Below are positions 1 to 10,210 of a DNA stretch of 10,210 nt, piece after piece. The translations under genes and the position numbers were made by a program. The stretch comes from a virus. Numbering within the stretch: the stretch's first letter is position 1; each line of letters begins with the position of its first letter. Below the pieces are notes generated by a model. It did not search any database. It was not told where the DNA came from and saw only the letters and a program-made list of their open reading frames with translations. The stretch lies in the UHGV virus genome UHGV-0225709; one strand, given 5' to 3'.

Positions 1-369
1 TTTTGTCATGACATCAACCCAATTCTTAATACCAGGAATCTCGGTTACTGGACAACTCATATCCCAATAACCAGCCTGTTCCCACGTTAAAACGGGCAAC
101 CGGGCGATGTTGTCACTAATGTAAGGGTACTGATTCAGACGCAGATCATCGGCTTTATCGTGACCGTCCTTTCCATAAAGAATCCATTCAGGAGATTTGG
201 AAAGCAATTTTGACAGTAGATACAAATTCTCACCGTCAGGTTTTGAAGAGCCATTTTCCCATTTTGTTACGGATACACGAGATATGCCGATTGCTTTCGC
301 AACCTGCTGTTGGGTTAATCCAACGTCTTTTCGACGATTCCGAATACGTTCGCTGATAGTGTTTTTCAT
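1..369 (-). CDS. cI: Phage repressor, lambda-cI-like with LexA/S24-type C-terminal domain (partial; the C-terminus lies beyond the window start)
   Basis: Reverse-strand reading frame is open from ATG (complement of 367-369) to the window edge, 123 codons with no stop. The translation begins MKNTISERIRNRRKDVGLTQQQVAKAIGISRVSVTKWENG, a typical XRE/Cro-C1 helix-turn-helix. It continues ...RLPVLTWEQAGYWDMS..., which resembles the lambda cI hinge around its Ala-Gly RecA-stimulated autocleavage site. Absent from the ORF track because it is truncated. Divergent from the downstream cro-like gene. Confidence 0.8.
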   Translation of the reverse strand, partial: MKNTISERIRNRRKDVGLTQQQVAKAIGISRVSVTKWENGSSKPDGENLYLLSKLLSKSPEWILYGKDGHDKADDLRLNQYPYISDNIARLPVLTWEQAGYWDMSCPVTEIPGIKNWVDVMTK

Positions 370-460
370 GTAACCAATGTTACTACCAAGTGATGTTGCT
401 ATGGTTGACATTGTTATGTAACTATTGTTACCCTTTTGCTCGAAATAACAGGAGAGTTTT
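370..460. promoter_or_regulatory. Divergent immunity promoter/operator region between repressor and cro-like gene
   Basis: A 91 bp non-coding gap lies between divergent regulator genes. Two copies of the 14 bp dyad GTAAC-N4-GTTAC occur at 370-383 (gtaaccaatgttac) and 418-431 (gtaactattgttac). A TTGACA hexamer sits at 405-410. The SD ggagag at 444-449 precedes ATG 461. I could not pair the -35 with a convincing -10. Confidence 0.55.
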
Positions 461-676
461 ATGTTCAAAGATGATGTTCTGCGCTATTTCAAAAAAAAGC
501 GACTAGTAGCTGAGGCTCTTGGAATTTCACATGTGGCTGTTGTGCGGTGGAAAGCAGTTATTCCCAAACTTCGCGCAATGGAACTGGATGAAATTACTAA
601 CGGTGAATTGAAATACAACCCAGAACTTTACAAGAAGCAGGATAGCACCTCAAACGAAGGAAAGAATGATTCATGA
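461..676 (+). CDS. cro: Cro-like small DNA-binding regulator (HTH)
   Basis: 71-aa ORF with SD ggagag 12 nt upstream. The motif KKRLVAEALGISHVAVVRWKA is a classic Cro/C1-type HTH. Position immediately divergent from the repressor gene. The stop overlaps the next start (ATGA at 673-676). Confidence 0.75.
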   Translation: MFKDDVLRYFKKKRLVAEALGISHVAVVRWKAVIPKLRAMELDEITNGELKYNPELYKKQDSTSNEGKNDS

Positions 677-1098
677 AAATCAAGCATGAACACATCCGCA
701 TGGCGATGAATGTCTGGGCGCATCCGGACGGCGAAAAAGTACCGGCTGCGAAAATTACCAAAGCGTATTTCGAGCTGGGAATGACGTTCCCGGAACTGTA
801 TGACGACAGCCATCCGGAAGCCCTGGCCCGTAATACCCAGAAAATTTTCCGCTGGGTAGAGAAAGACACCCCTGATGCAGTTGAAAAAATTCAGGCGTTG
901 TTACCAGCGATCGAAAAGGCAATGCCACCTTTGCTGGTGGCCAGAATGCGCAGCCACAGTTCAGCTTATTTTCGGGAGCTGGTGGAGACGCGGGAGCGAC
1001 TGGTGAGAGACGCTGATGATTTTGTCGCAGTGGCAATCGCCGGTTTCAATCAGATGAACCGTGGTGGCCCGGCAGGAAATGCTGTGGCAGTACATTGA
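673..1098 (+). CDS. CII-like phage regulatory protein (YdaT/CP76-like by recollection); function inferred from position
   Basis: 141-aa ORF translationally coupled to the cro-like gene by an ATGA overlap, with SD aaggaaag at 657-664. The product (MKIKHEHIRMAMNVW...) resembles, from memory, the protein encoded after cro-like ydaS in Rac-type prophages. Family assignment not verified. Confidence 0.55.
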   Translation: MKIKHEHIRMAMNVWAHPDGEKVPAAKITKAYFELGMTFPELYDDSHPEALARNTQKIFRWVEKDTPDAVEKIQALLPAIEKAMPPLLVARMRSHSSAYFRELVETRERLVRDADDFVAVAIAGFNQMNRGGPAGNAVAVH

Positions 1099-1169
1099 CT
1101 GACAATAGCCATGTCGAATCGCTTCCGGCAACTCGTGAGTAAAAAGATTCGGTATCAGAAGAGGTGAGT

Positions 1170-2240
1170 ATGGCTAACGCCTGGCTCAGATTATGGCATG
1201 ACATGCCAAATGACCCTAAGTGGCGAACAATTGCCAGGGTGTCAGGGCAGCCAATTGCAACAGTGATGGCAGTATATATCCACCTCCTGGTGAGCGCGTC
1301 ACGAAATGTCACGCGAGGTCACATTGATGTCACGACAGAAGATTTGGCAAGTGCGCTCGACGTGACAGAAGAGGTAATTGATTCAATTTTGCAGACGATG
1401 CAGGGGCGGGTACTTGATGGTGATTTAATCACTGGATGGGAAAAACGCCAGGTGCTGAAAGAGGACAACGGCAATATTTCGCAAACCGCAAAATCTCCGG
1501 CAGAGCGCAAGAGGGCGCAGCGAGAGAGGGAAAGAAAGCGGGAACAAAATGGCGATTGTCACGGCGAGTCACGAAATGTCACGCACATGTCACGACGAGT
1601 CACGACAGATAAAGATACAGATAAAGATACAGATCAAGAAGATCAAAACACTATGGTCCATGGCGTAAAAAACGCCACGAACCAGGCAGGGGATGTTCAG
1701 ACCGTCAATCTCGGTCAGCCAGCAGGCACGACACCGGAAGCCGATTCAGCGTATGCGCTGAAAGCCGATTCGGGCGCTGTGCAGCAGGTGATGACCGCAA
1801 GGCAGGAGCAATCACACCAACTTCAGCAGCCTGAAGCCGATTCCGCCATTCAGCGGGAAGCCGATCGGGTAGTCCCGGAAAACACCGGTCAGTCTGTGGG
1901 ACGAGTGGATTATCCGGATGTGTTCGAACAGGTCTGGCGGGAGTACCCGTTGCGTGCCGGAGCAAACCCGAAGAAATCCGCTTTCAGTGCCTGGAAGGCC
2001 AGATTACGCGAGGGGGTGCCACCAGAGGCCATGCTGGATGGCGTGAGGCGTTACGCAAGATACCTGGCGGCTACCGGGAAAGCGGGAACGGAATTTGTTC
2101 AGCGAGCGACGACGTTTTTTGGACCGGACCGGAATTTTGAGAACCCCTGGTTTCTCCCGGTAAGCGGCACGAACAACCAGCGTTGTGTGAATCATATTAC
2201 TGAACCGGATAACGAAATTCCGCCGGGCTTCAGGGGGTAA
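1170..2240 (+). CDS. Phage replication initiation protein (lambda-O-like organisation, iterons embedded in the gene)
   Basis: 356-aa ORF taking ATG 1170 (the track begins at GTG 1164), with SD gaggtg at 1161-1166. N-terminal region WLRLWHDMPNDPKWRTIARVSGQPIATVMAVY. C-terminal region DYPDVFEQVWREYPLRAGANPKKSAFSAWKARL...GVRRYARYLAATGKAGTEFVQRATTFFGPDRNFENPWFLP matches a motif I recall from phage replication initiator/primosomal-type proteins. Contains iteron arrays and an AT-rich tandem repeat (see repeat features). Sits in the position of P2 gene A. Confidence 0.7.
   Translation: MANAWLRLWHDMPNDPKWRTIARVSGQPIATVMAVYIHLLVSASRNVTRGHIDVTTEDLASALDVTEEVIDSILQTMQGRVLDGDLITGWEKRQVLKEDNGNISQTAKSPAERKRAQRERERKREQNGDCHGESRNVTHMSRRVTTDKDTDKDTDQEDQNTMVHGVKNATNQAGDVQTVNLGQPAGTTPEADSAYALKADSGAVQQVMTARQEQSHQLQQPEADSAIQREADRVVPENTGQSVGRVDYPDVFEQVWREYPLRAGANPKKSAFSAWKARLREGVPPEAMLDGVRRYARYLAATGKAGTEFVQRATTFFGPDRNFENPWFLPVSGTNNQRCVNHITEPDNEIPPGFRG
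1298..1334. repeat. Iteron cluster 1: four GTCAC(G) repeats at 10-11 bp phasing (putative origin element)
   Basis: GTCAC begins at 1298, 1308, 1318 and 1329. An inverted copy CGTGAC lies at 1361-1366. The 17-mer gtcacgaaatgtcacgc at 1298-1314 recurs exactly at 1568-1584. Confidence 0.7.
1558..1650. repeat. Iteron cluster 2 (five GTCACG repeats at 10-11 bp phasing) followed by an AT-rich tandem repeat; putative phage origin of replication inside the rep gene
   Basis: GTCACG at 1558, 1568, 1578, 1589 and 1599. Immediately followed by gataaagataca twice in tandem (1608-1631) and then gatcaagaagatcaaaac. This lies in the region encoding an acidic linker (DKDTDKDTDQEDQ). The arrangement parallels ori-lambda within gene O (iterons followed by an AT-rich unwinding region). 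Confidence 0.7.
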
Positions 2241-2280
2241 GTGTTAATTTCTGGTCATGAGGTAATTTTCAGGAGGGCTT

Positions 2281-2703
2281 GTGGCAAAAGTTTTTACACA
2301 AGAAGAGCGGGAAAAAATTAAAGGGCTGATCGTGGAATTCGTACGCCTTAACGGACGAGGCACGATTCGGCAGTTATCGGATGAAATTGGTGTCAGTCAT
2401 GCGTCTGTCGGTCGTTTATGCATGGAGCTGGCCGCCAGTGGTGATGTTTACAATTCCGGTTACGGAGTATTCCCGTCTGAGCAGGCGCGCAAGGACTGGC
2501 AAAACGCCCGCAAAAAACTCTCAAGGGCAAAGCTGAAGAAACCATCTGTGGTTGATCCGGACCTTATCTGGCTATTACCAGACGGCGAAATACGCCGCTA
2601 CGACAGGCGCCTAAACATAATCTGTCGCGAGTGCCGGAAGAGTGAAGCTATGCAGCGTGTACTGGCTTTCTATCAGGGTAATTTTCAGGAGACGGTACTG
2701 TGA
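2281..2703 (+). CDS. Hypothetical protein with a probable winged-HTH N-terminus and a single C-terminal CxxC
   Basis: 140-aa ORF starting at GTG 2281 with a strong SD aggagg at 2271-2276. GTIRQLSDEIGVSHASVGRLCMELAASG looks like an HTH; followed by a basic stretch (ARKKLSRAKLKK) and CRECRK. No confident family assignment. Confidence 0.6.
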   Translation: MAKVFTQEEREKIKGLIVEFVRLNGRGTIRQLSDEIGVSHASVGRLCMELAASGDVYNSGYGVFPSEQARKDWQNARKKLSRAKLKKPSVVDPDLIWLLPDGEIRRYDRRLNIICRECRKSEAMQRVLAFYQGNFQETVL

Positions 2704-2760
2704 GTGAAATTAGCTATCAGGCTTCAATTACCGCTGGCATTCGCATCAAAGGAGAGGAGC

Positions 2761-3117
2761 ATGGAAATAAAACCAGAGGATGAGTTAAGCAATATCGTTT
2801 TATTTCCGGTAAAAGAGGATGACCCTCGTAATCAGGTTAATTTTCTTTATGAGCCATCGGAAAGACCATATTGTCATCACGCCTCTGTCCGGGTTGACGA
2901 AAAAGAGCGTCAGGTCCGCTGTAAAATCTGCGGTGCAGTTGTGGAGCCGTTTGACTGGATACTCTCTGTGGCGAAAAGAGAAACCAGACTGGCAGATGAT
3001 GTAAGGCTATTGCGCCAGGAGGAACAGGAAAGGCGGAAAAATATAGAAAAGTTAATTCAGATTGAGCGTAACGCGAAAGCGCGGATACGCAGGGCGACAA
3101 AATCCAGAACTGAATAA
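2761..3117 (+). CDS. Hypothetical protein with a putative zinc ribbon (C-x17-CxxC) and a charged, probably coiled-coil C-terminus
   Basis: ATG 2761 preceded by SD aggag at 2750-2754. Product MEIKPEDELSN...CHHASVRVDEKERQVRCKICGAV...RLLRQEEQERRKNIEKLIQIERNAKARIRR. The track ORF starts at GTG 2704 in the same frame; that alternative start is not excluded and is 12 nt downstream of a second copy of the ggtaattttcaggag element. Confidence 0.6.
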   Translation: MEIKPEDELSNIVLFPVKEDDPRNQVNFLYEPSERPYCHHASVRVDEKERQVRCKICGAVVEPFDWILSVAKRETRLADDVRLLRQEEQERRKNIEKLIQIERNAKARIRRATKSRTE

Positions 3118-3167
3118 ATAAATTTAGAGCTGTAAATAAAATCTAATCCTTAACTGGAGGTATATTT

Positions 3168-3380
3168 ATGTTAAATACACAGAAAGCCATTAATGCGGAA
3201 AAATATAACGAGTGGGCAAGAAAATTCTCTGAGCAGATTTTTAAAATTACTGGCGATGAGAATGCGGCAAAAAATGAATTAGAACCGTGGACGCCTGAAG
3301 GAGCCGACTCAAATTATTGCTGGAGGGAGGTTGATCCAGTTGATGCTGCAAATGAAGCTATGAGTTATTACAACGATTAA
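3168..3380 (+). CDS. Small acidic hypothetical protein (70 aa); first gene of the AT-rich cargo segment
   Basis: ATG 3168 with SD ctggagg 6-12 nt upstream. The product has 14 Asp+Glu against 7 Lys+Arg by my count. Lies in markedly AT-rich DNA. Confidence 0.6.
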   Translation: MLNTQKAINAEKYNEWARKFSEQIFKITGDENAAKNELEPWTPEGADSNYCWREVDPVDAANEAMSYYND

Positions 3381-3390
3381 TGTCAGGAGG

Positions 3391-3406
3391 CCGCCCGAAA
3401 GGGCGG
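3391..3406 (+). other. Perfect 6 bp GC stem with GAAA tetraloop (ccgccc-gaaa-gggcgg) directly after an AGGAGG and before two ATGs
   Basis: Seen directly: aggagg 3385-3390, stem 3391-3396 / 3401-3406, ATGs at 3409 and 3413. No U-tract follows, so it is not a canonical intrinsic terminator. May be an RNA processing or translational control element. Confidence 0.5.
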
Positions 3407-3492
3407 TAATGAATGGTCACATTATTTAGAAAAAATATCCGCGAAAGAGTAGAACAACAGAATTTCTGTTTCTCATTCTGTTTATCGTGTTG

Positions 3493-3630
3493 ATGATACC
3501 GATATCCCCGCTAATCCTAGTCTGGATAATCGGAAAAATAATTGAGCCAGTTATTGAATTGTATAACGACGTGGTATGGGCGTCATTCAACACACTGCAC
3601 AATAAAATTAATCCGTATAAGGAAAACTGA
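3493..3630 (+). CDS. Candidate small hydrophobic (single-pass membrane?) peptide, 45 aa
   Basis: ATG 3493 overlaps the stop of a 26-codon upstream ORF (3413-3493) in a TGATG arrangement. Its own stop TGA 3628-3630 sits 1 nt before ATG 3632 of the next gene. Product MIPISPLILVWIIGKIIEPVIELYNDVVWASFNTLHNKINPYKEN has a hydrophobic N-terminal half. Too short for the ORF track. No classical SD of its own, so expression would depend on coupling. Confidence 0.4.
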   Translation: MIPISPLILVWIIGKIIEPVIELYNDVVWASFNTLHNKINPYKEN

Positions 3631-3631
3631 T

Positions 3632-3895
3632 ATGGCAACTTTGACAAAAAAAGAACGGGCATGGTTGAACGAATTACAGGAAGTTCTTGATCGCTGTCCA
3701 TCACCGAAAAAAATTGGCTTTTACACCATTGGCGATAAAAGCATTTACCTGTATGACCTACGCCGCATGGATGAAATCATGGAGGCTCTTGATAATCGTT
3801 CGTCAATGGATTGGTGTGTTGCTGTCCATGATATGAATGCAGGGTTTGATGAAAAGATTTTGTTCCCCTCATCAGTTGAAAGCACAGCAGGATAA
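3632..3895 (+). CDS. Hypothetical small protein (87 aa), last gene before the terminator
   Basis: ATG 3632 with SD aagga at 3619-3623. The track ORF begins at TTG 3542 in the same frame, but the internal ATG with SD is the better start. Product MATLTKKERAWLNELQEVLDRCPSPKKIGFYTIGDKSIYLYDLRRMDEIMEALDNRSS... Followed 37 nt later by an intrinsic terminator. Confidence 0.6.
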   Translation: MATLTKKERAWLNELQEVLDRCPSPKKIGFYTIGDKSIYLYDLRRMDEIMEALDNRSSMDWCVAVHDMNAGFDEKILFPSSVESTAG

Positions 3896-3931
3896 GGACC
3901 CAGCAAATATACACAACCTATAAAACACTAA

Positions 3932-3956
3932 AGCGCCTCAGGGGCGCTTTTTGTTT
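3932..3956 (+). terminator. Rho-independent terminator closing the rightward early/cargo operon
   Basis: Stem agcgcc (3932-3937), loop tcagg, stem ggcgct (3943-3948), followed by tttttgttt. Confidence 0.75.
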
Positions 3957-3982
3957 GCACAAAAGTGCACAAATTTGCACAA
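3956..3982. repeat. Three direct TGCACAA repeats at exactly 10 bp phasing, followed by a T7 tract
   Basis: TGCACAA at 3956-3962, 3966-3972 and 3976-3982. Helical phasing puts the sites on one DNA face. Candidate protein-binding array (small terminase/cosB-like or a regulator). Confidence 0.5.
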
Positions 3983-4052
3983 TTTTTTTGAACGACTTTT
4001 TACCCTTCCGGCCCGCATGGCGGCTGGATCCGTCAAGGATCCGTGCGTGCAC

Positions 4053-4076
4053 AAAAAAACGCGCTTTTTCTGCGCG
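4053..4076 (-). terminator. Candidate Rho-independent terminator for leftward transcription (short stem)
   Basis: On the minus strand: CGCGC-agaaaaa-GCGCG followed by TTTTTTT (plus-strand aaaaaaa at 4053-4059). The stem is only 5 bp, so moderate confidence. Convergent with the plus-strand terminator at 3932-3956. Confidence 0.45.
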
Positions 4077-4353
4077 CAGGTGACGGGGGAACAGCCCGCG
4101 TTTCAGGGGGTAAATAGCATTCCCTGAACGATGTCGCAGAGATACAACAGAATGGCTGTATTTCTCACGCTGAGCGTGAAAAAGACGTGAGGGCTTTTGA
4201 TTTGATGGGGTGAAAGGTAAGGCCGTCAAAATCGCACTGAGACGGCGAGAACATGCAGTCAACGCGGTGGGATTGCGTAAGAGTCTGACTGTCGATGATG
4301 GCAATCAGCAGGAAAGCGTCGTGAAATTATCTGATTGATACAGGAGCTGGAGA

Positions 4354-4382
4354 GCCGGGGCATAAATTTTTTATGCCCCGGC
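4354..4382. other. Inverted repeat / hairpin immediately downstream of the portal gene
   Basis: gccggggcat (4354-4363) pairs with atgccccggc (4373-4382), extendable through flanking A/T. Lies 25 nt past the Q-like stop. No clear U-tract on either strand. Confidence 0.45.
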
Positions 4383-4406
4383 GAAGCAGCAGACAAGCGA
4401 AGCGCG

Positions 4407-5453
4407 TCAGGATGTGGGCTGGGTGTCTAACAGTGCGTAAGGGTTAAAGCGGATCACCTTTTCGCCAAGCCAGTCATTGATGTGCTTCATGGCCTCCATG
4501 ACGGGCATCAGTTCGTTAATTGCGTAAACCCGCGCGGCCTTCTCCACATCACCAAACGCACTTTTTTCGCCCGGCATCGCCCCCATCAGTTGCGGCGGAA
4601 CGCGGTGCGCAGCCAGCACATCATCACGGGATGCCGCCTTAACATTCATGAACTCATCCTTTGCGGTGATCTGCTGGAACGGCAAAATTTGCACCCCCTC
4701 TTTGCCCCCGTTGGGCGCATGAATGAGCACGTTTTTAAACGCACCGCCACCACGCGCACCCTGTAACGTTTCTTTCAGGGAGTCCATGCTTTCGCGGTTT
4801 ACCTGCGCTGCACCGATGTAGATGATGCACCCGGCATGGGATCCGTTGTCGTAATACAGTTTTCTGAACATGTCCGCCGAATGAGACAGGCTGGCCGAGA
4901 GTAATGCGCCAAGATATTCCGGCATGCCGTAGATTTCCTGGTTAATGTCAGGATTCATCAGGTGGCACACTTTGCCTGGGCGAAACTGAAACGCATCCTT
5001 ACCATCCTGCACATACCACCATGATTCAAGATCGCTTCCGCGTCGCATGTATTTCGCTAGGGCGTGCCGTAATTTAAGCGGTTCGCCGAGCATATTGCTT
5101 CGAAGCTCAAGGAATGCGTTACCGAACACAAACCAGTCCAGCGCCAGCGCCGAGAAATCCTGCCGGGAAAGCAGCGGGTGCGGGATGTAGCAACCGAGTA
5201 ATACATTGCGCTTAAAGTAAAGCGCAGACTGATGCCAGGACGTTTGCCGGGCAGCTCTTGCCAGACCGTACCAGTCCACCGGTGTTTCATACCACCGCCC
5301 GTTATCAGCACAGTACATATTGTCCAGCAAATCATGCCCGGTCAGGCGATAAGGACCATCAAATGTGAATGCACTGAGCGATGATTCTTTCCTGAGCGCA
5401 TCAGCGAGATCAATGCGTGAACTCATGCGCACTTTTTTATTTTTTCTGCTCAT
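4407..5453 (-). CDS. Q: Portal protein, P2 gpQ-like
   Basis: 348-aa ORF on the minus strand with SD GGAG 5 nt upstream of its ATG (complement of 5451-5453). Size and position (adjacent to and co-oriented with large terminase, next to the cos region) match P2 Q. The start overlaps the terminase stop (ATGA). Confidence 0.8.
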   Translation of the reverse strand: MSRKNKKVRMSSRIDLADALRKESSLSAFTFDGPYRLTGHDLLDNMYCADNGRWYETPVDWYGLARAARQTSWHQSALYFKRNVLLGCYIPHPLLSRQDFSALALDWFVFGNAFLELRSNMLGEPLKLRHALAKYMRRGSDLESWWYVQDGKDAFQFRPGKVCHLMNPDINQEIYGMPEYLGALLSASLSHSADMFRKLYYDNGSHAGCIIYIGAAQVNRESMDSLKETLQGARGGGAFKNVLIHAPNGGKEGVQILPFQQITAKDEFMNVKAASRDDVLAAHRVPPQLMGAMPGEKSAFGDVEKAARVYAINELMPVMEAMKHINDWLGEKVIRFNPYALLDTQPTS

Positions 5454-7204
5454 CAGAACTCCATAACCGTGAAACGCTCGTTTTCTCCTTCGCCGCCAAT
5501 TGGTTCGTTAATGACAGCAAGCATGGTTGCCCACGCAAGGTCGCCGTGGCTGATCCCCCTCGCGCGGTCCGTTTCGTAAGTGATAAAGCCGCCCGGTGTT
5601 TTCACCTTACGCACGGCGTTAAAGGCTGCGACCAGCTCGCGTTCGGCGCGATCGTATTCCCACCGCCCGGCACGCATTATTTGCAGCATTTTCAGTACCA
5701 GCGACCGTTTTGATGACAGCGTGAAGGTGTACGGAATAGCAGCAGGGAAAAACCGTTTCACTATCTGATAAACAGCCTCCCCGTTCCCGCCTGTCACATC
5801 AATGCCGATGTGTTCCACGTTGTAGCGACACGTGAACTCTTCAATGACTCTGGCCTGTTCTTCAAACTCCAGCCCCTGAACGCGTCGCGTCTCCACCGTT
5901 CGAAAACGGCCTCCAGGAACAGCCGGAGGAACCACCACGGACACAGCGCCGCTGTCGCCGTTTCCACTGCTGCCGTTTGCGTCATACCCAATCCATACCG
6001 GACGATTCCCCATCGGGCGGGGAGCAAAAGGTTTCCAGTCTTTCCAGTCGTCGTATCCGTCAACACCGCAGCCAATCAGGATATTCAGGTTAAATGCCGA
6101 TTCCCCTTCGCGGACAAACTCACACATATAGAGATTGAGGAACTCATCTTCGGTGTTTTCATCACGAATTTCGTCGATATCGGTGTGTTTCCAGCCGTGA
6201 TTAACCACATCTTCCAGCGTGACAATTTGCCGCCACGTCCGGTCAGGGCAGATAAGCCCGTTATGCAGCGTTTTCCAGTCCACAGAAAAACGCTGGCGTT
6301 TATGCGAGGCCTTTTTCTCGTTCCAGCGGTCGCCGTTCCAGTAGGCGTATGCCTCGTGCGTTTCGGTGGATGGCGTGGAAAAGTAGGTGCGCCGCAGTCC
6401 GCTGAGGGTTGCCATAGCGCCAGCCACCTTGCGCAGTTCAGCAAAGCGACTGACCCAGAAAAATTCATCAAAATAAAAATTGCCCGTATAGGACTGTGCC
6501 GACGCAGCAGAAGTGCCGAGAAAATGCAGCTCTGCGCCGTTGGAGAGGATGATTTTATCGCCCCCTTTCAGCTCCACATCAACTTCAGCCGCGGCCTTCT
6601 GAATAATGCTTTTAAACTGGAACGCCTGACGACGCGACGCAGACAAAAAAATCTGGTTACGCTGGTAAGGTTGCGCCACATCGTCACGCAGCGCCATCAG
6701 CAGAGCTTCCTGTGCAAAATACCAGGTCGCCCCAATCTGTCGGGATTTCAGGATCATCCTGTTACGTATCCCGGCTTCCCTGCAAAGGGTCAGGGTGTCA
6801 AACCAGCCCCGCTGATGCCACTCCAGCCTGCTGATGATTTTTTCCCGCAGTGCGGCAATCTGTTCCGGCGTGAAATGATTTTTGAGTTTTTTCGCCCGGC
6901 CTTTCTTTCCTGCGGCCGTCACATCCGGCTGGCCATCATGCAGCTTTTTAAGCTGCCGGGTCAGCAGGTCTATTTCCTTAAAGTCACCGCCTGTTTTATT
7001 CTGTTTTTCAGTAAGCTGGATGAGGCGCGCATCGATGGACTGCGTGACACGCTGCACGGGTGGCGTTTCATCCCACTGGTCGCGTTTTTTCCACGCATAA
7101 ATCGTGTTCGGGTTTATTCCCATCAGACGTGATATTTCTGCGGGCGGATAACCCTGCCAGTAAAGTTGCCGCGCACGCTGGCGCACAAAAGCGTCCTGAA
7201 TCAT
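5453..7204 (-). CDS. P: Terminase large (ATPase) subunit, P2 gpP-like
   Basis: 583-aa ORF. Contains a P-loop-like KSRQIGAT motif and acidic nuclease-domain-like segments. Length and position match P2 P (about 590 aa). SD agggggag upstream of the ATG (complement of 7202-7204). Confidence 0.85.
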   Translation of the reverse strand: MIQDAFVRQRARQLYWQGYPPAEISRLMGINPNTIYAWKKRDQWDETPPVQRVTQSIDARLIQLTEKQNKTGGDFKEIDLLTRQLKKLHDGQPDVTAAGKKGRAKKLKNHFTPEQIAALREKIISRLEWHQRGWFDTLTLCREAGIRNRMILKSRQIGATWYFAQEALLMALRDDVAQPYQRNQIFLSASRRQAFQFKSIIQKAAAEVDVELKGGDKIILSNGAELHFLGTSAASAQSYTGNFYFDEFFWVSRFAELRKVAGAMATLSGLRRTYFSTPSTETHEAYAYWNGDRWNEKKASHKRQRFSVDWKTLHNGLICPDRTWRQIVTLEDVVNHGWKHTDIDEIRDENTEDEFLNLYMCEFVREGESAFNLNILIGCGVDGYDDWKDWKPFAPRPMGNRPVWIGYDANGSSGNGDSGAVSVVVPPAVPGGRFRTVETRRVQGLEFEEQARVIEEFTCRYNVEHIGIDVTGGNGEAVYQIVKRFFPAAIPYTFTLSSKRSLVLKMLQIMRAGRWEYDRAERELVAAFNAVRKVKTPGGFITYETDRARGISHGDLAWATMLAVINEPIGGEGENERFTVMEF

Positions 7205-7358
7205 TGCTCCCCCTGAGTAATTACAGGAAGATTACCCGCGCGCGAAACCGTTCTCCTTAACCCCCTGTTCTGGCCGTTTTCTTACAACAAAAGCCCTTTG
7301 TATCAGCCTGTTACGCTTTGCCATCATGACTGAAGAACCAGTCAGAGGGGCAAAAACT
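7205..7358. promoter_or_regulatory. Divergent intergenic region between the P-like and O-like genes; expected location of divergent late promoters
   Basis: 154 bp non-coding gap between divergently transcribed packaging/head operons, as in P2 (P_P and P_O). I could not find convincing sigma70 -35/-10 pairs nor an exact TGT-N12-ACA dyad (only TGT-N15-ACA at 7266-7286). An 8 bp palindrome gtaattac lies at 7217-7224. Confidence 0.5.
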
Positions 7359-8195
7359 ATGGCTAATGAAAAAAAGACATCCCGCAAAAAGTTTCGCGTG
7401 GCTGTCTCCGGATCAACTGTTGATGGCCGCGAAATCAGCCCGGTACATCTGCGTGAAGCCGCCGAGAACTTCAACCCGGATGTTTACGCTGCCCGCGTGA
7501 ACGTTGAGCACTATCTCTCGCCATGCCCGTCAAGCGAATTTTCCGCAATGGGCGATGTCACCGCGCTGAGTACGGAAGATATTACGGAAGGCCCGCTGGC
7601 CGGACGTACTGCGCTGTATGCAGAAATCGAACCGACCGAGCGCATGAAGCAGCTTGTCGCTGACGGCAAGAAAATCTATTCCAGTATCGAACTGCACCCG
7701 CAGTTCTCCGTTAACGGGCGCGCCTATCTGGTCGGGCTGGCGATGACCGACACCCCGGCAAGCCTGGGCACTGAGCGCCTGAAATTCACGGCACAGCAGC
7801 GTCAGGCGGTGATGACGTTCAACAGTATTCAGGGTGAAGCACCGCTTATCTCCGAAGCCATCGAGTCTGAAATCATCGAAATGGCAGAACAACGCCAGGA
7901 AGAAGGCACCCAGTGGTTTAACCGCGTAATGGGGATTATTGGTCGTGGCCGCAAAGCGGATGACGCCAGTTTCTCCCGTATTCAGGAAGCGGTGGAAGGC
8001 GTCGCAACGTCACAGGCCGACATTATCGACCGTTTTAATGTGCTGGAAACCCGCCATCAGCAGGACAGCAAGAAAATCACGTCACTGACCACAGAGCTGA
8101 CAGCTCTGACGGAAAAACTGCGCACGCAGGACGGCGATCCGCAGAACCGCTTCACCGCAACGGGCGCAGCCTCCGACCAGCTGGCTGACTTCTGA
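7359..8195 (+). CDS. O: Capsid scaffolding protein, P2 gpO-like
   Basis: ATG 7359 with SD agagggg at 7343-7349 (the track begins at ATG 7326, 11 codons upstream). The segments GSTVDGREISPVHLREAAENFNPDVY and ...GRAYLVGLAMTDTPASLGTERLKF... resemble P2 O as I recall it. Correct size (about 280 aa) and position before the major capsid gene. Confidence 0.8.
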   Translation: MANEKKTSRKKFRVAVSGSTVDGREISPVHLREAAENFNPDVYAARVNVEHYLSPCPSSEFSAMGDVTALSTEDITEGPLAGRTALYAEIEPTERMKQLVADGKKIYSSIELHPQFSVNGRAYLVGLAMTDTPASLGTERLKFTAQQRQAVMTFNSIQGEAPLISEAIESEIIEMAEQRQEEGTQWFNRVMGIIGRGRKADDASFSRIQEAVEGVATSQADIIDRFNVLETRHQQDSKKITSLTTELTALTEKLRTQDGDPQNRFTATGAASDQLADF

Positions 8196-8218
8196 TAAGA
8201 CAAAGGAGCAAATTTTTT

Positions 8219-9271
8219 ATGAATCTGGTGATGTCAGATATTACCCGCAACAAGCTGGGTTGCTATATGGCGCAGCAGGCGTCGCTTAACAATATCCCGG
8301 TATCTGCACTGGTATCGCGATTTACCGTGGAACCCGCGGTGCAGCAGCGTTTTGAAAACGCCTCAAAGGAAAGTACCGAATTTACGAAAAGAATTAACGT
8401 GATCGGCGTGACCGACCAGAAAGGCGAAAAAATCCTCCTGGACACCACCGGGCCAATTGCGCGCACGAATAGCAGTTATGACGGCATCAAACGCCGTAAC
8501 CCGAATAACGTGATCGATATGAACTCTCGTCAGTACCAGTGCGAACAGGTGAACTACGATACCTTTATTTCGTACCCACAGCTTGATACCTGGGCGGCCC
8601 ACAGCGATTTTCAGTCCCGTATCAGTACACAGATCGCCCGGCAGGTAGCGCTTGATCGCATCATGATTGGCTTTAACGGCACATCCCACGCCTACGAGTC
8701 TGATTTTCACACCAACAAGCTGCTTCAGGACGTTAACGTGGGCTGGCTGGAGCACATCAGAACCGATGCCAGCGAGCGCGTAATGAATGACGTGACGCTG
8801 ACCTCCCGCAACATGGACAACACTGTGGCGCACGCGGGTAAGTATGCGAATGCCGATGCTCTGGTACAGGATGCGCGCTCATCCCTGCTGGATGAATGGC
8901 ACAAGGAAGCTGACGACCTTGTGGTGATTATGGGGCGCAACCTGTTTAACTCGCTGCGTCTGCCCGTACTGAACAGCATCAGCGGCCAGAATCCCAATGC
9001 GGAATTACTTGCCGGGCAGCTCATCCTGTCATCGCGCACCATTGGCGGGCTGGGCGTGTTCCTTGCGCCGTTCTTCCCGGATGCAACGATGCTGATCACC
9101 TCGTTCAACAACCTGTCGATTTACTGGCAGAAAGGTTCAATGCGTCGCCTGATGAAAGACGAGCCGGAATACAACCGCATCGCCACCTACCAGTCCATCA
9201 ATGACGCTTATGTCGTTGAAGACTATGGCAAGTGCGCGATGGTCACTGGCTTGAAGTTCGCCGACAGCTAA
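8219..9271 (+). CDS. N: Major capsid protein, P2 gpN-like
   Basis: 350-aa ORF with SD aaaggagc at 8203-8210. The segments ...FTVEPAVQQ..., ...IMIGFNGTSHA..., ...VGWLEHIR..., ...DLVVIMGRNL..., ...MLITSFNNLSIYWQ... and ...YVVEDYGKCAMV... match the P2 N family pattern as I recall it. Confidence 0.85.
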   Translation: MNLVMSDITRNKLGCYMAQQASLNNIPVSALVSRFTVEPAVQQRFENASKESTEFTKRINVIGVTDQKGEKILLDTTGPIARTNSSYDGIKRRNPNNVIDMNSRQYQCEQVNYDTFISYPQLDTWAAHSDFQSRISTQIARQVALDRIMIGFNGTSHAYESDFHTNKLLQDVNVGWLEHIRTDASERVMNDVTLTSRNMDNTVAHAGKYANADALVQDARSSLLDEWHKEADDLVVIMGRNLFNSLRLPVLNSISGQNPNAELLAGQLILSSRTIGGLGVFLAPFFPDATMLITSFNNLSIYWQKGSMRRLMKDEPEYNRIATYQSINDAYVVEDYGKCAMVTGLKFADS

Positions 9272-9316
9272 TCAACTCACGGCGGGCATCATGCCCGCCT
9301 GTAACGGAGAGAAAAA

Positions 9317-10117
9317 ATGATTACTCCTGCACAACAACACTGGCAGAACGTGATGGCACAGCGCGCAGGCCGGGCGAATGAAGGTGTGGACCACGCCGCG
9401 CGTACCGCGCATGAAGAGGTGCTGTATCGTCTGCGTCTGGCACAGGCCAGGCTAAAGGGCGTACAGGCCAGAAGCGCGAAAGCCGCCATCAAAAAAGAGT
9501 TGTTGCCGGATTTTTCCGGCTGGATTGAGGGAACGCTGGAAGCTGACGGCGGGCAGCAGGATGAAGTGATTGCCACGCTGATGGTGTGGGCGATTGACTG
9601 TGGCGATCTTCCGCTTGCGCTGCGTATCGGCGCGTATGTGGTCCATCACAACCTCATCATGCCGGATAACTTTGGCCGTACTGCTGCCACGGTACTGACC
9701 GAAGAAATCTGTAATCCGGTACTGACGCAGGCCGGGACGGATGCCGACGCGGATTTGTCCGCCTTTATCGAACCACTGGACACCCTCCGGGAGATTGTCA
9801 CCGACCAGGACATGCCGGACGAAGTGCGCGCCAAATTATGCAAAGCGTGCGCCTTTGCCCGCCGTGGCCTGACCGATGCGGACAGCATGGCCTCATCACT
9901 GAAGCTGCTGCGCGAAGCAATGCACCTGAACCCGAACGCAGGTGTGAAACGCGAGATTGCAACCCTTTCCCGCGCCCTGAAAAAAGCCGATTCCGCAGCC
10001 GCACCAGAAGATGCCAGCACACCGCAGGCGCAGGACGAAAGCAGCAAAAGTAAAAAGACAACGCGGAAGCCTGCAACACGAAAAACCACCGCGACGCAGA
10101 AGGCGAAGCGCGGTTAA
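9317..10117 (+). CDS. M: Terminase small (endonuclease) subunit, P2 gpM-like
   Basis: 266-aa ORF with SD ggagag at 9305-9310. N-terminus MITPAQQHWQNVMAQRA..., ...KKELLPDFSGWIEG... and a basic K/R-rich C-terminal tail are characteristic of P2 M-type small terminases. Gene order O-N-M. Confidence 0.8.
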   Translation: MITPAQQHWQNVMAQRAGRANEGVDHAARTAHEEVLYRLRLAQARLKGVQARSAKAAIKKELLPDFSGWIEGTLEADGGQQDEVIATLMVWAIDCGDLPLALRIGAYVVHHNLIMPDNFGRTAATVLTEEICNPVLTQAGTDADADLSAFIEPLDTLREIVTDQDMPDEVRAKLCKACAFARRGLTDADSMASSLKLLREAMHLNPNAGVKREIATLSRALKKADSAAAPEDASTPQAQDESSKSKKTTRKPATRKTTATQKAKRG

Positions 10118-10132
10118 CGACTGACCCCGTCA

Positions 10133-10204
10133 GCGGGCGGCGTGCGCGGTGTTCCGGTTTGACTCCGTGACCGTTTACACCGCGCACCCACCGCCCGATT
10201 TTTT
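10133..10204 (+). other. Long imperfect inverted repeat followed by a T6 tract between the M-like gene and the next SD (terminator- or attenuator-like)
   Basis: Left arm gcgggcgg-cgtgcgcggtg (10133-10151) pairs with caccgcgcac (10178-10187) and ccgcccg (10191-10197) across a 3 nt bulge. Loop is about 26 nt. tttttt at 10199-10204, then caggag SD at the window edge. Confidence 0.4.
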
Positions 10205-10210
10205 CAGGAG

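What the first reader, a model, noticed from the sequence alone, without database searches (positions are those of the whole stretch)
2241..3117. Two-gene unit after the replication gene (wHTH/CxxC protein plus zinc-ribbon/coiled-coil protein), each preceded by an identical 15 bp element
The exact 15-mer ggtaattttcaggag occurs at 2261-2275, supplying the SD for GTG 2281, and again at 2677-2691, just before the second gene. This suggests a shared translational operator or a duplicated initiation region. The pair occupies the replication-to-cos interval but has normal G+C, so it may be an older resident or a regulatory/replication accessory pair rather than recent cargo. Neither function is recognisable by eye. 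The repeat also raises the question of whether the second gene starts at GTG 2704 (12 nt after the repeat) or at ATG 2761 (its own SD).
Basis: seen in the sequence. Interest (0 to 1): 0.6.

Follow-up and report, generated by a model that had tools for sequence, protein, structure and literature searches.

The report
Duplicated ribosome-binding 15-mer around Ren-like gene
The repeated 15 bases are two ordinary ribosome-binding sites in the early operon of a Rac-type lambdoid prophage: one sits in front of a Ren-like (DUF977) gene, and the other lies in that gene's last codons, where it starts the next, overlapping reading frame, so the repeat is real but not a new regulatory element.

Summary
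The exact 15-mer GGTAATTTTCAGGAG is present at 2261-2275 and 2677-2691 and is not a chance repeat. Both copies are best read as ribosome-binding sites (inferred from sequence, not measured).

Copy 1 serves GTG 2281 of gene 1. Gene 1 is a Pfam DUF977 / YdaW / "LygF" protein, the Rac-type counterpart of lambda Ren.

Copy 2 lies inside gene 1's last codons (GNFQE). Its AGGAG sits 8 nt before GTG 2700, which overlaps gene 1's TGA stop. DUF977 loci with a real downstream gene all use this overlapping start.

Here GTG 2700 opens only a 27-codon relic: the head and tail of an ea22 homologue with the middle deleted. It ends 23 nt inside gene 2.

Gene 2 starts at ATG 2761 with its own Shine-Dalgarno, not at GTG 2704. 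It is a 118-aa zinc-ribbon plus long-helix protein (PHROG 1621) of unknown function, found across Enterobacterales.

The two copies do not co-vary. Most relatives lack one of them, their presence is independent of gene 1's recognition-helix allele, and no RNA structure is associated. An operator role is therefore not supported.

The pair belongs to a lambdoid ren/nin-type early region. Its position next to P2-type head genes reflects a join inside a shared ~480-bp cassette. Ordinary; low interest.

The parts
1164..2240 (+). Replisome-organizer (O-like) gene. This is upstream context. Its 3' end is what brings the spacer carrying copy 1.
   Evidence: PHROG 3729 replication initiation protein, E 1.2e-255. 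In 118 of 119 viral contigs holding its 3' end, it is followed by the same spacer and a DUF977 start.
2241..2280 (+). 40-nt intergenic spacer between the organizer gene and gene 1. It contains copy 1.
   Evidence: Sequence. The left part of the spacer is found only in this context.
2261..2275 (+). 15-mer copy 1: the ribosome-binding region (UAAUUUU plus AGGAG) for GTG 2281.
   Evidence: It is present only when DUF977 follows this organizer type. It is absent (6-7 mismatches) when DUF977 follows a DUF1627 gene.
2281..2703 (+). Gene 1: a 140-aa DUF977 / YdaW / 'LygF' protein, Ren-like. It has an N-terminal winged helix, a nearly invariant core (residues 52-131) and a variable tail.
   Evidence: Pfam PF06163, 102.4 bits against a cutoff of 22.1. 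PHROG 142, E 3.6e-44. Shares a C-terminal motif with lambda Ren, E 4e-7. AF2 model pLDDT 79, above 90 for residues 11-70. Fold hits are to IclR/GntR/MarR/Zalpha-type winged helices.
2677..2691 (+). 15-mer copy 2. It encodes G133-E137 of gene 1 and also supplies the Shine-Dalgarno (AGGAG 2687-2691) for the overlapping start at GTG 2700.
   Evidence: It is the last conserved block before the mosaic breakpoint, and the GTGA island after it is conserved.
2700..2783 (+). 27-codon relic ORF, an internally deleted ea22 homologue. GTG 2700 overlaps gene 1's TGA stop (GTGA). The ORF ends 23 nt inside gene 2.
   Evidence: It translates to VSEISYQASITAGIRIKGEEHGNKTRG. Lambda Ea22 begins VSEINSQA and ends AGIRIKGE. 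The ArgO145 Ea22-like protein ends AGIRIKGEEHGNKTRG and overlaps gene 2 in the same way.
2749..2759 (+). Gene 2's own Shine-Dalgarno (AAGGAGAGGAG). The AAGGAG core lies 6 nt before ATG 2761.
   Evidence: Sequence. This block is retained in every upstream context of gene 2.
2761..3117 (+). Gene 2: a 118-aa protein with a small C-x-H...C-x-x-C zinc ribbon and a long, basic, highly conserved C-terminal helix. Function unknown.
   Evidence: PHROG 1621, E 5.5e-56, with profile position 1 at this Met. Homologues of 113-132 aa occur across Enterobacterales, all annotated 'hypothetical'. The alignment shows the invariant residues. AF2 model. There is no significant fold or sequence match to solved structures.
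3168..3380 (+). Gene 3: a 70-aa protein that travels with gene 2 in both Stx-phage and Rac-type contexts.
   Evidence: PHROG 4659, E 3.2e-48. It is co-linear with gene 2 in ArgO145, E41 and five of the ten contexts shown.

Best explanation
The region is the ren/nin-type stretch of the early-right operon of a Rac-like lambdoid prophage. Gene order is Cro, YdaT/CII, replisome organizer, DUF977, relic ea22, gene 2, gene 3.

The 15-mer is a ribosome-binding region that is used twice.
- Copy 1, in the organizer-DUF977 spacer, initiates gene 1 at GTG 2281.
- Copy 2 has two roles. It encodes the poorly conserved C-terminal tail of gene 1, and its AGGAG recruits or retains ribosomes for the GTG that overlaps gene 1's stop codon (GTGA at 2700-2703). 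This is classical translational coupling.

In this lineage the coupled gene, an ea22 homologue, has lost its middle by an in-frame deletion. That leaves a 27-codon ORF which terminates 23 nt past gene 2's ATG. Gene 2 is therefore translated from ATG 2761 using its own AAGGAG, possibly helped by ribosomes finishing the relic ORF.

The identity of the two copies is a historical copying event: a short recombination or conversion patch at the Shine-Dalgarno. It is not maintained because the copies need to match.

Shown here: the positions, the reading frames, the start of gene 2, the relic nature of the mini-ORF, the independence of the two copies, and the family membership of the genes.

Inferred: that the sites function as ribosome-binding sites in vivo, that translation is coupled, and how copy 1 arose.
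For: - **Universal overlapping start.** In all DUF977 loci with a real downstream gene, that gene starts at a GTG overlapping the TGA stop. Examples are a 164-aa methyltransferase-like protein, an 84-aa protein and a 116-aa protein.
- **SD tracks the coupled ORF.** An SD at the copy 2 position is present in 33/33 junctions with a coupled ORF of 60 codons or more, in 26/31 with 20-59 codons, and in 2/40 with a shorter ORF or none. Alleles ending GNVRYLLK*, which have no coupled gene, lack the SD.
- **Conservation profile.** Across 95 distinct junctions, conservation is high through the 15-mer, then collapses to 0.4-0.55 except for a conserved GTGA island.
- **Same architecture in lambda.** The lambda P/ren junction has an SD inside P's 3' end and an ATGA overlap.
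- **Mini-ORF is an ea22 relic.** It consists of the head and tail of Ea22. A full Ea22 gene precedes gene 2 in phage 689R5.
- **Gene 2 start.** Supported.
- **One transcription unit.** There is no promoter or terminator between 1164 and 3930.
- **The copies are independent.** Supported.
- **Only two recurrent contexts.** In a viral-contig sample, the 15-mer recurs only in these two contexts.
Against: - No expression data exist, so ribosome-binding function and coupling are inferred from sequence only.
- The SD/coupled-ORF association is confounded by linkage. The 3' tail and the downstream gene travel together as mosaic blocks, and the junctions are not phylogenetically independent.
- The origin of copy 1 is unresolved. 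The flanks show no extra homology. No tandem DUF977 intermediate was found in 247 loci. No deletion or duplication products of recombination between the copies were seen.
- A 15/16-nt identity is too long for convergence, so a copying event is required but was not observed.
Confidence: 0.8

Rival explanations
1. The 15-mer is a shared operator. Gene 1's winged-helix protein, or another factor, binds it on DNA or mRNA to co-regulate gene 1 and the gene downstream.
For: - Gene 1 has a confident winged helix.
- The repeat is exact, non-random and overlaps two initiation regions.
Against: - 36 of 52 unbiased loci lack copy 1, and only 10 have both copies exact.
- There is no co-variation.
- Both recognition-helix allele classes occur with every combination of copies.
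- No RNA structure is present (z-scores from +0.2 to -1.2), and there is no Rfam hit.
- The 15-mer has no dyad symmetry.
Confidence: 0.05
2. The 15/16-mer acts as a recombination 'linker'. It would be a short conserved boundary sequence at which accessory cassettes are exchanged, or through which the DUF977 gene can be excised or duplicated.
For: - Copy 2 is the last conserved block before a mosaic breakpoint, with many different downstream genes.
- Copy 1 sits at the junction between alternative upstream modules and DUF977 alleles.
- The direct repeats flank gene 1 exactly.
Against: - Its conservation is explained more simply by coding plus SD function.
- No deletion product (organizer spacer joined to a GTGA-coupled gene) appeared among 119 organizer ends.
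- No tandem DUF977 was found in 247 loci.
- 15-16 nt is at the lower limit for homologous exchange.
- Breakpoints at gene boundaries are expected anyway, because only functional recombinants survive.
Confidence: 0.1
3. Chance or convergent evolution produced two strong ribosome-binding sites with the same sequence.
For: - Both sites need AGGAG and benefit from an upstream A/U-rich stretch.
- Any exact 15-mer repeat anywhere in a 10-kb window occurs in about 5% of shuffles.
Against: - A repeat within 500 nt occurred in 1/300 shuffles.
- The ten non-SD bases are also identical.
- The motif is not a general RBS consensus of these phages, since it recurs only in these two contexts.
Confidence: 0.04
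4. Programmed read-through of TGA 2701-2703 produces a gene 1-gene 2 fusion. This is conceivable because GTG 2704, ATG 2761 and gene 1 are all in the same frame.
For: - Gene 1 and gene 2 share a frame, separated by one TGA and 19 sense codons.
- Rare fusion proteins exist in databases (P0040).
Against: - The 2704-2760 stretch is a mosaic of ea22 head and tail read in another frame. It is not conserved in gene 2's other contexts.
- Sharing a frame has a one-in-three prior.
- P0040 is a gene 2-DUF977 recombinant in the opposite order, not a read-through product.
Confidence: 0.01

Closest known systems
Lambda ren, and the P/ren junction of phage lambda
   Same: - The position matches: it directly follows the replication genes in the pR operon.
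- It has an N-terminal helix-turn-helix-like region and shares the C-terminal motif N-[IL]-[IV]-x-[RK]-E-C-R-x-S-x-A-M-x-R-V-L-A-x-Y (E 4e-7).
- PHROG 142 groups the two proteins.
- The lambda P/ren junction uses the same device as copy 2: an SD inside the upstream gene's 3' end plus a 4-nt stop/start overlap.
   Different: - Lambda Ren is 96 aa. It lacks the 44 extra residues and does not reach the Pfam DUF977 threshold.
- Ren ends 4 residues after the conserved Y, so it has no tail that hosts an SD for a following gene.
- Resistance to Rex exclusion was not tested for gene 1.
YdaW of the E. coli K-12 Rac prophage (Pfam DUF977, annotated 'LygF' in phage records)
   Same: - Same family, with a full-length match.
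- Same operon context: ydaS/cro, ydaT, replication genes, then ydaW.
- The identical protein is recorded in 884 blocks of the public assembly index.
   Different: - In many Rac-type prophages DUF977 follows a DnaC/IstB-like gene and a DUF1627 gene, and has an ATG start without copy 1.
- No function is established. The only experimental note found is an overexpression hit as a blocker of the retron-Sen2 toxin (bioRxiv 10.1101/2020.06.22.160242).
ea22 - ea8.5 of the lambdoid exo-xis region
   Same: - The mini-ORF carries the Ea22 N-terminus and C-terminus.
- Gene 2 sits where ea8.5 sits in lambda, as the next gene after ea22. Like Ea8.5, it is a small Cys/His zinc protein.
- Yeast two-hybrid links between Ea8.5/Orf63 and Ren are reported in PMC8614690.
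   Different: - Gene 2 is not detectably homologous to Ea8.5 (hhalign probability 5%). Only a 13-residue motif is similar.
- The predicted fold is a zinc ribbon plus a long helix, not a homeodomain/zinc finger.
- Here the cassette lies in the pR operon rather than the pL operon.
Translational coupling through overlapping stop/start codons (ATGA/GTGA) with the SD inside the upstream gene. This is textbook in E. coli operons such as trp, and in phage operons (my own knowledge).
   Same: - A 4-nt GTGA overlap, with an SD 8 nt upstream inside the preceding ORF.
- A strong association between the SD and the presence of a coupled ORF.
   Different: - The coupled ORF here is a 27-codon relic.
- The same SD-bearing 15-mer also appears in front of the upstream gene.

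Membership tests
Pfam PF06163 (DUF977) - gene 1 | Score above Pfam's gathering threshold over the full-length profile | tested here: met
   102.4 bits against a cutoff of 22.1. Residues 1-136 align to profile positions 1-134 of 134.
Ren-like proteins (PHROG 142; lambda Ren) - gene 1 | Significant match to the PHROG profile and sequence similarity to lambda Ren itself | tested here: met
   PHROG 142, E 3.6e-44. BLASTP against lambda Ren gives 12/20 identical residues in the C-terminal motif, E 4e-7.
Ren-like proteins (PHROG 142; lambda Ren) - gene 1 | Position immediately after the replication genes in the early-right operon | tested here: met
   Window gene order. The same order occurs in E41, 813R8, Tritos and the ten contexts. 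Lambda O-P-ren order.
Ren-like proteins (PHROG 142; lambda Ren) - gene 1 | Confers resistance to Rex exclusion (the phenotype that defines ren) | not testable with these tools
   Requires phage genetics. No data were found for any DUF977 protein.
PHROG 1621 - gene 2 | Significant full-length profile match starting at the family's N-terminus | tested here: met
   E 5.5e-56. Residues 20-136 of the 2704 ORF align to profile positions 1-120, so the profile starts at ATG 2761.
Zinc-ribbon proteins - gene 2 | Four conserved metal ligands in two knuckles flanking a beta-hairpin | tested here: met
   C38, H40, C54 and C57 are invariant in 29 sequences. Strands 43-46 and 51-54 lie between them. The best fold hit is the TFIIB zinc ribbon but is not significant (E 0.44). 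Metal binding itself was not tested.
Lambda Ea8.5 family (hybrid homeodomain/zinc finger) - gene 2 | Detectable sequence or profile homology to Ea8.5 | tested here: not met
   hhalign probability 5.3% over 13 columns. There is no PDB sequence hit to the solved Ea8.5 homologues.
ead/Ea22-like family - mini-ORF 2700-2783 | Central coiled coil and C-terminal domain, in addition to the conserved termini | tested here: not met
   Only 11 N-terminal and 16 C-terminal codons remain. It is a relic, not a functional family member.
Zalpha (Z-DNA/Z-RNA binding) domains - gene 1 N-terminus | The K...N...Y triad of the recognition helix that contacts Z-DNA | tested here: not met
   In the phmmer alignment to PKZ Zalpha, the triad positions K/N/Y are H/G/M in gene 1. 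The similarity is generic winged helix.
Translational or transcriptional operator shared by two genes - the 15-mer | Obligatory co-occurrence with the regulated genes and co-variation of the copies (or with the regulator) | tested here: not met
   Both copies are exact in 10 of 52 unbiased loci. There is no co-variation. Presence is independent of the recognition-helix allele.
Translational or transcriptional operator shared by two genes - the 15-mer | A defined RNA structure or dyad symmetry | tested here: not met
   Fold z-scores are +0.21 and -1.22. No Rfam family matches. The sequence is not palindromic.
Translationally coupled gene pair (overlapping stop/start) | Start codon overlapping the upstream stop, with an SD 5-10 nt upstream inside the upstream ORF | tested here: met
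   GTGA at 2700-2703, and AGGAG at 2687-2691 with an 8-nt spacer. The GTGA island is conserved.
Translationally coupled gene pair (overlapping stop/start) | Downstream translation depends on upstream translation | not testable with these tools
   Needs reporter fusions with premature stops in gene 1.

The most novel reading that the evidence does not exclude
The 16-mer GGTAATTTTCAGGAGG is a portable ribosome-binding cassette that also acts as a preferred crossover point for swapping accessory genes behind and in front of the Ren-like gene. In the same reading, the 27-codon ea22 relic is retained because it bridges translation from the Ren-like gene into gene 2. That would tie a Ren-like protein functionally to an exo-xis-type zinc protein, echoing the reported two-hybrid link between lambda Ren and Ea8.5. 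The evidence here does not exclude this. Breakpoints do cluster right after the 15-mer, and the relic keeps an open frame and its SD in 26 of 31 junctions. Every one of these observations, however, is also expected from plain coding and SD constraint plus shared ancestry.
Probability: 0.1. Interest if true: 0.4.

Novelty: already known. Interest (0 to 1): 0.15.

Why it matters
**Practical value for annotation**
- It fixes the start of a widespread hypothetical gene at ATG 2761 (118 aa).
- It identifies a 27-codon ea22 relic that gene callers miss or merge into a 137-aa ORF.
- It shows that the AGGAG inside the last codons of DUF977 genes is the ribosome-binding site of whatever gene follows.

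**A general caution**
Exact short repeats at gene starts in mosaic prophages can be shared ribosome-binding or junction sequences rather than operators.

**What remains open**
- The biological roles of the Ren-like DUF977 protein and of the PHROG 1621 zinc-ribbon protein are still unknown. Both are common in E. coli prophages, including Stx phages.
- The only functional hints are indirect: lambda Ren's anti-Rex phenotype, a retron-toxin blocker screen hit for YdaW, and Ren-Ea8.5 two-hybrid data.

Tried and rejected
- **Extended homology around the two copies, as a relic of a DUF977 3' end upstream of gene 1.** Local alignment of 25-60-nt flanks against shuffles gave p 0.3-0.96 on both sides. 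Rejected.
- **Intermediates for the origin of copy 1.** No tandem DUF977 was found in 247 loci. The left part of the spacer is not found in any other context. Nothing but DUF977 follows this organizer end, in 118 of 119 cases.
- **Co-variation of the copies**. None found.
- **RNA element.** Folding and Rfam at E <= 1 gave nothing.
- **Zalpha lead for gene 1** (PDB phmmer E 0.0055). Rejected because the signature residues are absent.
- **Lambda Ea8.5 homology for gene 2.** Rejected.
- **Function of gene 2.** Pfam gives only a sub-threshold Zn_Ribbon_TF match. NCBIfam, PADLOC and PDB sequence searches are empty. The PDB fold search is not significant.
- **Defence-system models for genes 1-3 and the 87-aa ORF.** Nothing found.
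- **Exact look-up of the organizer protein, to find the source contig.** Not on record.
- **The hybrid lambdoid/P2 joint in public data.** Absent from 5,426 complete E. coli genomes and from the phage collection.
- **Start at GTG 2704.** Rejected. The longer database forms (132-143 aa) are gene-caller extensions in other contexts.
Full report
**Observation.** The exact 15-mer GGTAATTTTCAGGAG is at 2261-2275 and 2677-2691. An exact 15-mer repeated within 500 nt appeared in 1 of 300 dinucleotide-preserving shuffles of the window, and any exact 15-mer repeat appeared in about 5% of shuffles. The repeat is therefore real and not chance. It is sharply bounded: 25-60-nt flanks on either side show no similarity beyond shuffled controls. 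In most relatives the shared block is the 16-mer GGTAATTTTCAGGAGG; in this window copy 2 is followed by A instead of G.

**Context.** Bases 1-3898 are the early-right region of a Rac-type lambdoid prophage. The genes are:

| Coordinates | Gene |
|---|---|
| 461-676 | P22-type Cro |
| 673-1098 | YdaT/CII-like |
| 1164-2240 | Replisome organizer |
| 2281-2703 | Gene 1 |
| 2761-3117 | Gene 2 |
| 3168-3380 | 70-aa gene |
| about 3410-3630 | Frameshifted DUF4014 |
| 3632-3895 | 87-aa ORF |

E. coli E41 carries bases 2100-3400 at 99.6% identity inside an ordinary lambdoid prophage. The exact gene 1 protein is recorded in 884 blocks of the public assembly index. All ten contexts shown are Rac-like prophages, and five have this same left arm followed by DUF551, RusA and Q.

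From 3419 onward the window matches P2/186-type prophages: portal, terminase, scaffold, capsid and small terminase. Lambdoid homology runs to 3898 and P2-type homology starts at 3419. The two modules therefore meet inside a shared ~480-bp cassette. No complete E. coli genome or phage record in the collections has the joint. It is not the native setting of the gene pair.

**Gene 1.** This is a full-length DUF977 protein (102.4 bits against a cutoff of 22.1). Phage records annotate the family as LygF and E. coli K-12 as YdaW, and PHROGs groups it with 'Ren-like exclusion protein' (E 3.6e-44). I tested the Ren label directly. Lambda Ren shares the C-terminal motif (12 of 20 residues identical, E 4e-7) and the position right after the replication genes. 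Ren is shorter and does not reach the DUF977 threshold.

The AF2 model has a confident winged helix (pLDDT above 90 for residues 11-70) and a less certain C-terminal half. Fold hits are generic IclR/GntR/MarR/Zalpha winged helices. A weak PDB sequence hit to Zalpha domains was rejected, because the K/N/Y contact triad is H/G/M in gene 1.

In an alignment of 16 DUF977 proteins, the recognition-helix region falls into two allele classes, residues 52-131 are almost invariant, and the tail after Y131 is variable. Copy 2 encodes part of that tail. No function is established. The only experimental note found is that ydaW was an overexpression hit as a blocker of the retron-Sen2 toxin (bioRxiv 10.1101/2020.06.22.160242).

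**What copy 2 does.** In every DUF977 locus with a real downstream gene, that gene begins at a GTG overlapping the DUF977 TGA stop (GTGA), 8 nt after the AGGAG of the 15-mer. Examples include a 164-aa methyltransferase-like protein, an 84-aa protein and a 116-aa protein.

Across 104 distinct junctions, an SD at this position tracks the coupled ORF:

| Coupled ORF length | Junctions with an SD |
|---|---|
| 60 codons or more | 33 of 33 |
| 20-59 codons | 26 of 31 |
| Under 20 codons, or none | 2 of 40 |

Alleles ending GNVRYLLK*, which have no coupled gene, have no SD there. A per-column profile of 95 junctions shows conservation through the 15-mer, a collapse to 0.4-0.55 right after it, and a conserved GTGA island. 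The lambda P/ren junction has the same architecture, with an SD inside P and an ATGA overlap. One caveat applies: the tail and the downstream gene are inherited together, so these counts are not independent events.

**The relic ORF.** In the window GTG 2700 opens a 27-codon ORF, VSEISYQASITAGIRIKGEEHGNKTRG, that ends at 2783. Lambda Ea22 begins VSEINSQA and ends AGIRIKGE. The Ea22-like protein of Stx phage ArgO145 ends AGIRIKGEEHGNKTRG and overlaps the start of the gene 2 homologue by the same 23 nt. Phage 689R5 has a full Ea22 gene before gene 2. The mini-ORF is therefore the head and tail of an ea22 homologue after an in-frame internal deletion, with the junction near 2732.

**Gene 2 and its start.**
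- The PHROG 1621 profile begins at the Met encoded by ATG 2761.
- All 28 aligned homologues, from Escherichia, Salmonella, Klebsiella, Kluyvera, Yokenella, Erwinia, Serratia, Pluralibacter and Yersinia, begin at that Met with the conserved motif E-ELSNVV-FP.
- Gene 2 occurs behind at least five different upstream sequences, whose similarity starts only about 30 nt before the ATG and includes AAGGAGAGGAG.

GTG 2704 is therefore rejected. The longer database forms are caller extensions in other contexts.

The protein has invariant C38, H40, C54 and C57 and an almost invariant C-terminal helix (LR-EE--RR-NIEKLIQIERNAKARIR). AF2 gives a small beta-hairpin zinc ribbon and one long helix at residues 63-117 (pLDDT 72.6 overall, about 90 in the distal helix). 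Pfam, NCBIfam, PADLOC, the PDB sequence search and the PDB fold search give nothing significant. Gene 2 is the positional analogue of lambda ea8.5, the gene after ea22, but it is not detectably homologous (hhalign probability 5%).

**Copy 1.** DUF977 has two main upstream contexts.
- Behind this organizer type, the 40-nt spacer with copy 1 and a GTG start is found in 118 of 119 organizer 3' ends.
- Behind a DnaC/IstB-like gene and a DUF1627 gene, the start is ATG and the equivalent position differs from the 15-mer at 7 of 15 bases.

In a sample of 120 viral-contig stretches holding the exact 15-mer, it recurs only in these two settings. All other hits are singletons in unrelated DNA.

**Operator test.**
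- In the unbiased set of 52 distinct loci, both copies are exact in 10, and copy 1 is absent in 36.
- Loci with a variant copy 1 (L233, L210, L256, L209) have an unrelated or canonical copy 2, and the reverse also holds.
- Both recognition-helix classes occur with all four presence/absence combinations.
- RNA folding around either copy is unremarkable, and Rfam finds nothing.
- There is no promoter or terminator between 1164 and 3930.

An operator shared by the two genes is not supported.

**Origin of the identity.** Sixteen identical bases, ten of them outside the SD, are too many for convergence, so a copying event is inferred. The simplest version is a short recombination or conversion patch at the GGAGG shared by the two initiation regions. 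I could not find the donor or an intermediate. There is no flank homology, no tandem DUF977 in 247 loci, and no deletion or duplication products. This step remains inference.

**Verdict.** The 'duplicated initiation region' reading is right in substance, the 'operator' reading is not supported, and the start-codon question is settled (ATG 2761, with copy 2 serving GTG 2700). Both genes belong to known, widespread families and are identical to sequences in many public genomes. Translational coupling through an SD embedded in the upstream gene is textbook. Interest is low. What remains unknown is what the Ren-like protein and the zinc-ribbon protein actually do.

Noticed in passing
window 3419-3898 (joint zone), with 1-3898 lambdoid and 3419-10210 P2/186-type: The window joins a Rac-type lambdoid early region to a P2-type cos/head module, inside a ~480-bp cassette (DUF4014 plus an 87-aa ORF) that both prophage types carry. 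No complete E. coli genome or phage record in the collections has this joint. It is either a rare inter-prophage recombinant (or hybrid phage) or an assembly chimera at a repeat.
   Followed up: partly
window 1294-1314 and 1564-1584: A 21-nt direct repeat GCG[C/A]GTCACGAAATGTCACGC lies inside the replisome-organizer gene, with a 17-nt exact core and 270-nt spacing. Zero of 200 shuffles gave two matches. Each copy contains GTCACG twice. These are candidate origin iterons, by analogy with ori-lambda inside gene O.
   Followed up: partly
window 3386-3430: The DUF4014 homologue is disrupted (ATG 3410 ... TAG after 6 codons; the gene is also annotated as frameshifted in E. coli E41). A G+C-rich hairpin (GCCGCCC-GAAA-GGGCGG, 3392-3408) sits between an AGGAGG and that ATG. 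Folding of the hairpin could bring the SD closer to the start.
   Followed up: no
window 3930-3950: A perfect 9-bp-stem hairpin (AAAGCGCCTCAGGGGCGCTTT) with T-runs on both strands looks like a bidirectional terminator. It lies right after the 87-aa ORF, at the boundary with the P2-type cos region.
   Followed up: no
window 2257-2265: A start-one-codon-stop mini-ORF (ATG AGG TAA) overlaps the 5' end of copy 1 in the organizer-DUF977 spacer. It is present in most relatives but not in the divergent locus L233.
   Followed up: no
window 2866-2904 (gene 2 residues 36-48) versus lambda Ea8.5 residues 25-37: There is a short local similarity around the Cys/His ligands (PYCHHASVRVDEK versus PCRHHEGVYVDEG, 7 of 13 identical), although overall homology is absent. 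It could be a remnant of a shared zinc knuckle or a coincidence.
   Followed up: partly
proteins P0040, P0002, P0015; locus L202: Public databases hold rare fusion or recombinant proteins: gene 2 N-terminus fused to DUF977 (P0040, 201 aa), Ea22 fused to gene 2 (P0002, 202 aa), and gene 2 with DUF1133 (P0015). One viral contig (L202) has two DUF977 genes 3.7 kb apart. Together these are signs of frequent rearrangement among these cassettes.
   Followed up: no
window 1734-1769 and 1830-1865; 1600-1640: The central part of the organizer gene has imperfect coding repeats (PEADSA... and DKDTDKDTD). This suggests a low-complexity linker between its N- and C-terminal domains.
   Followed up: no
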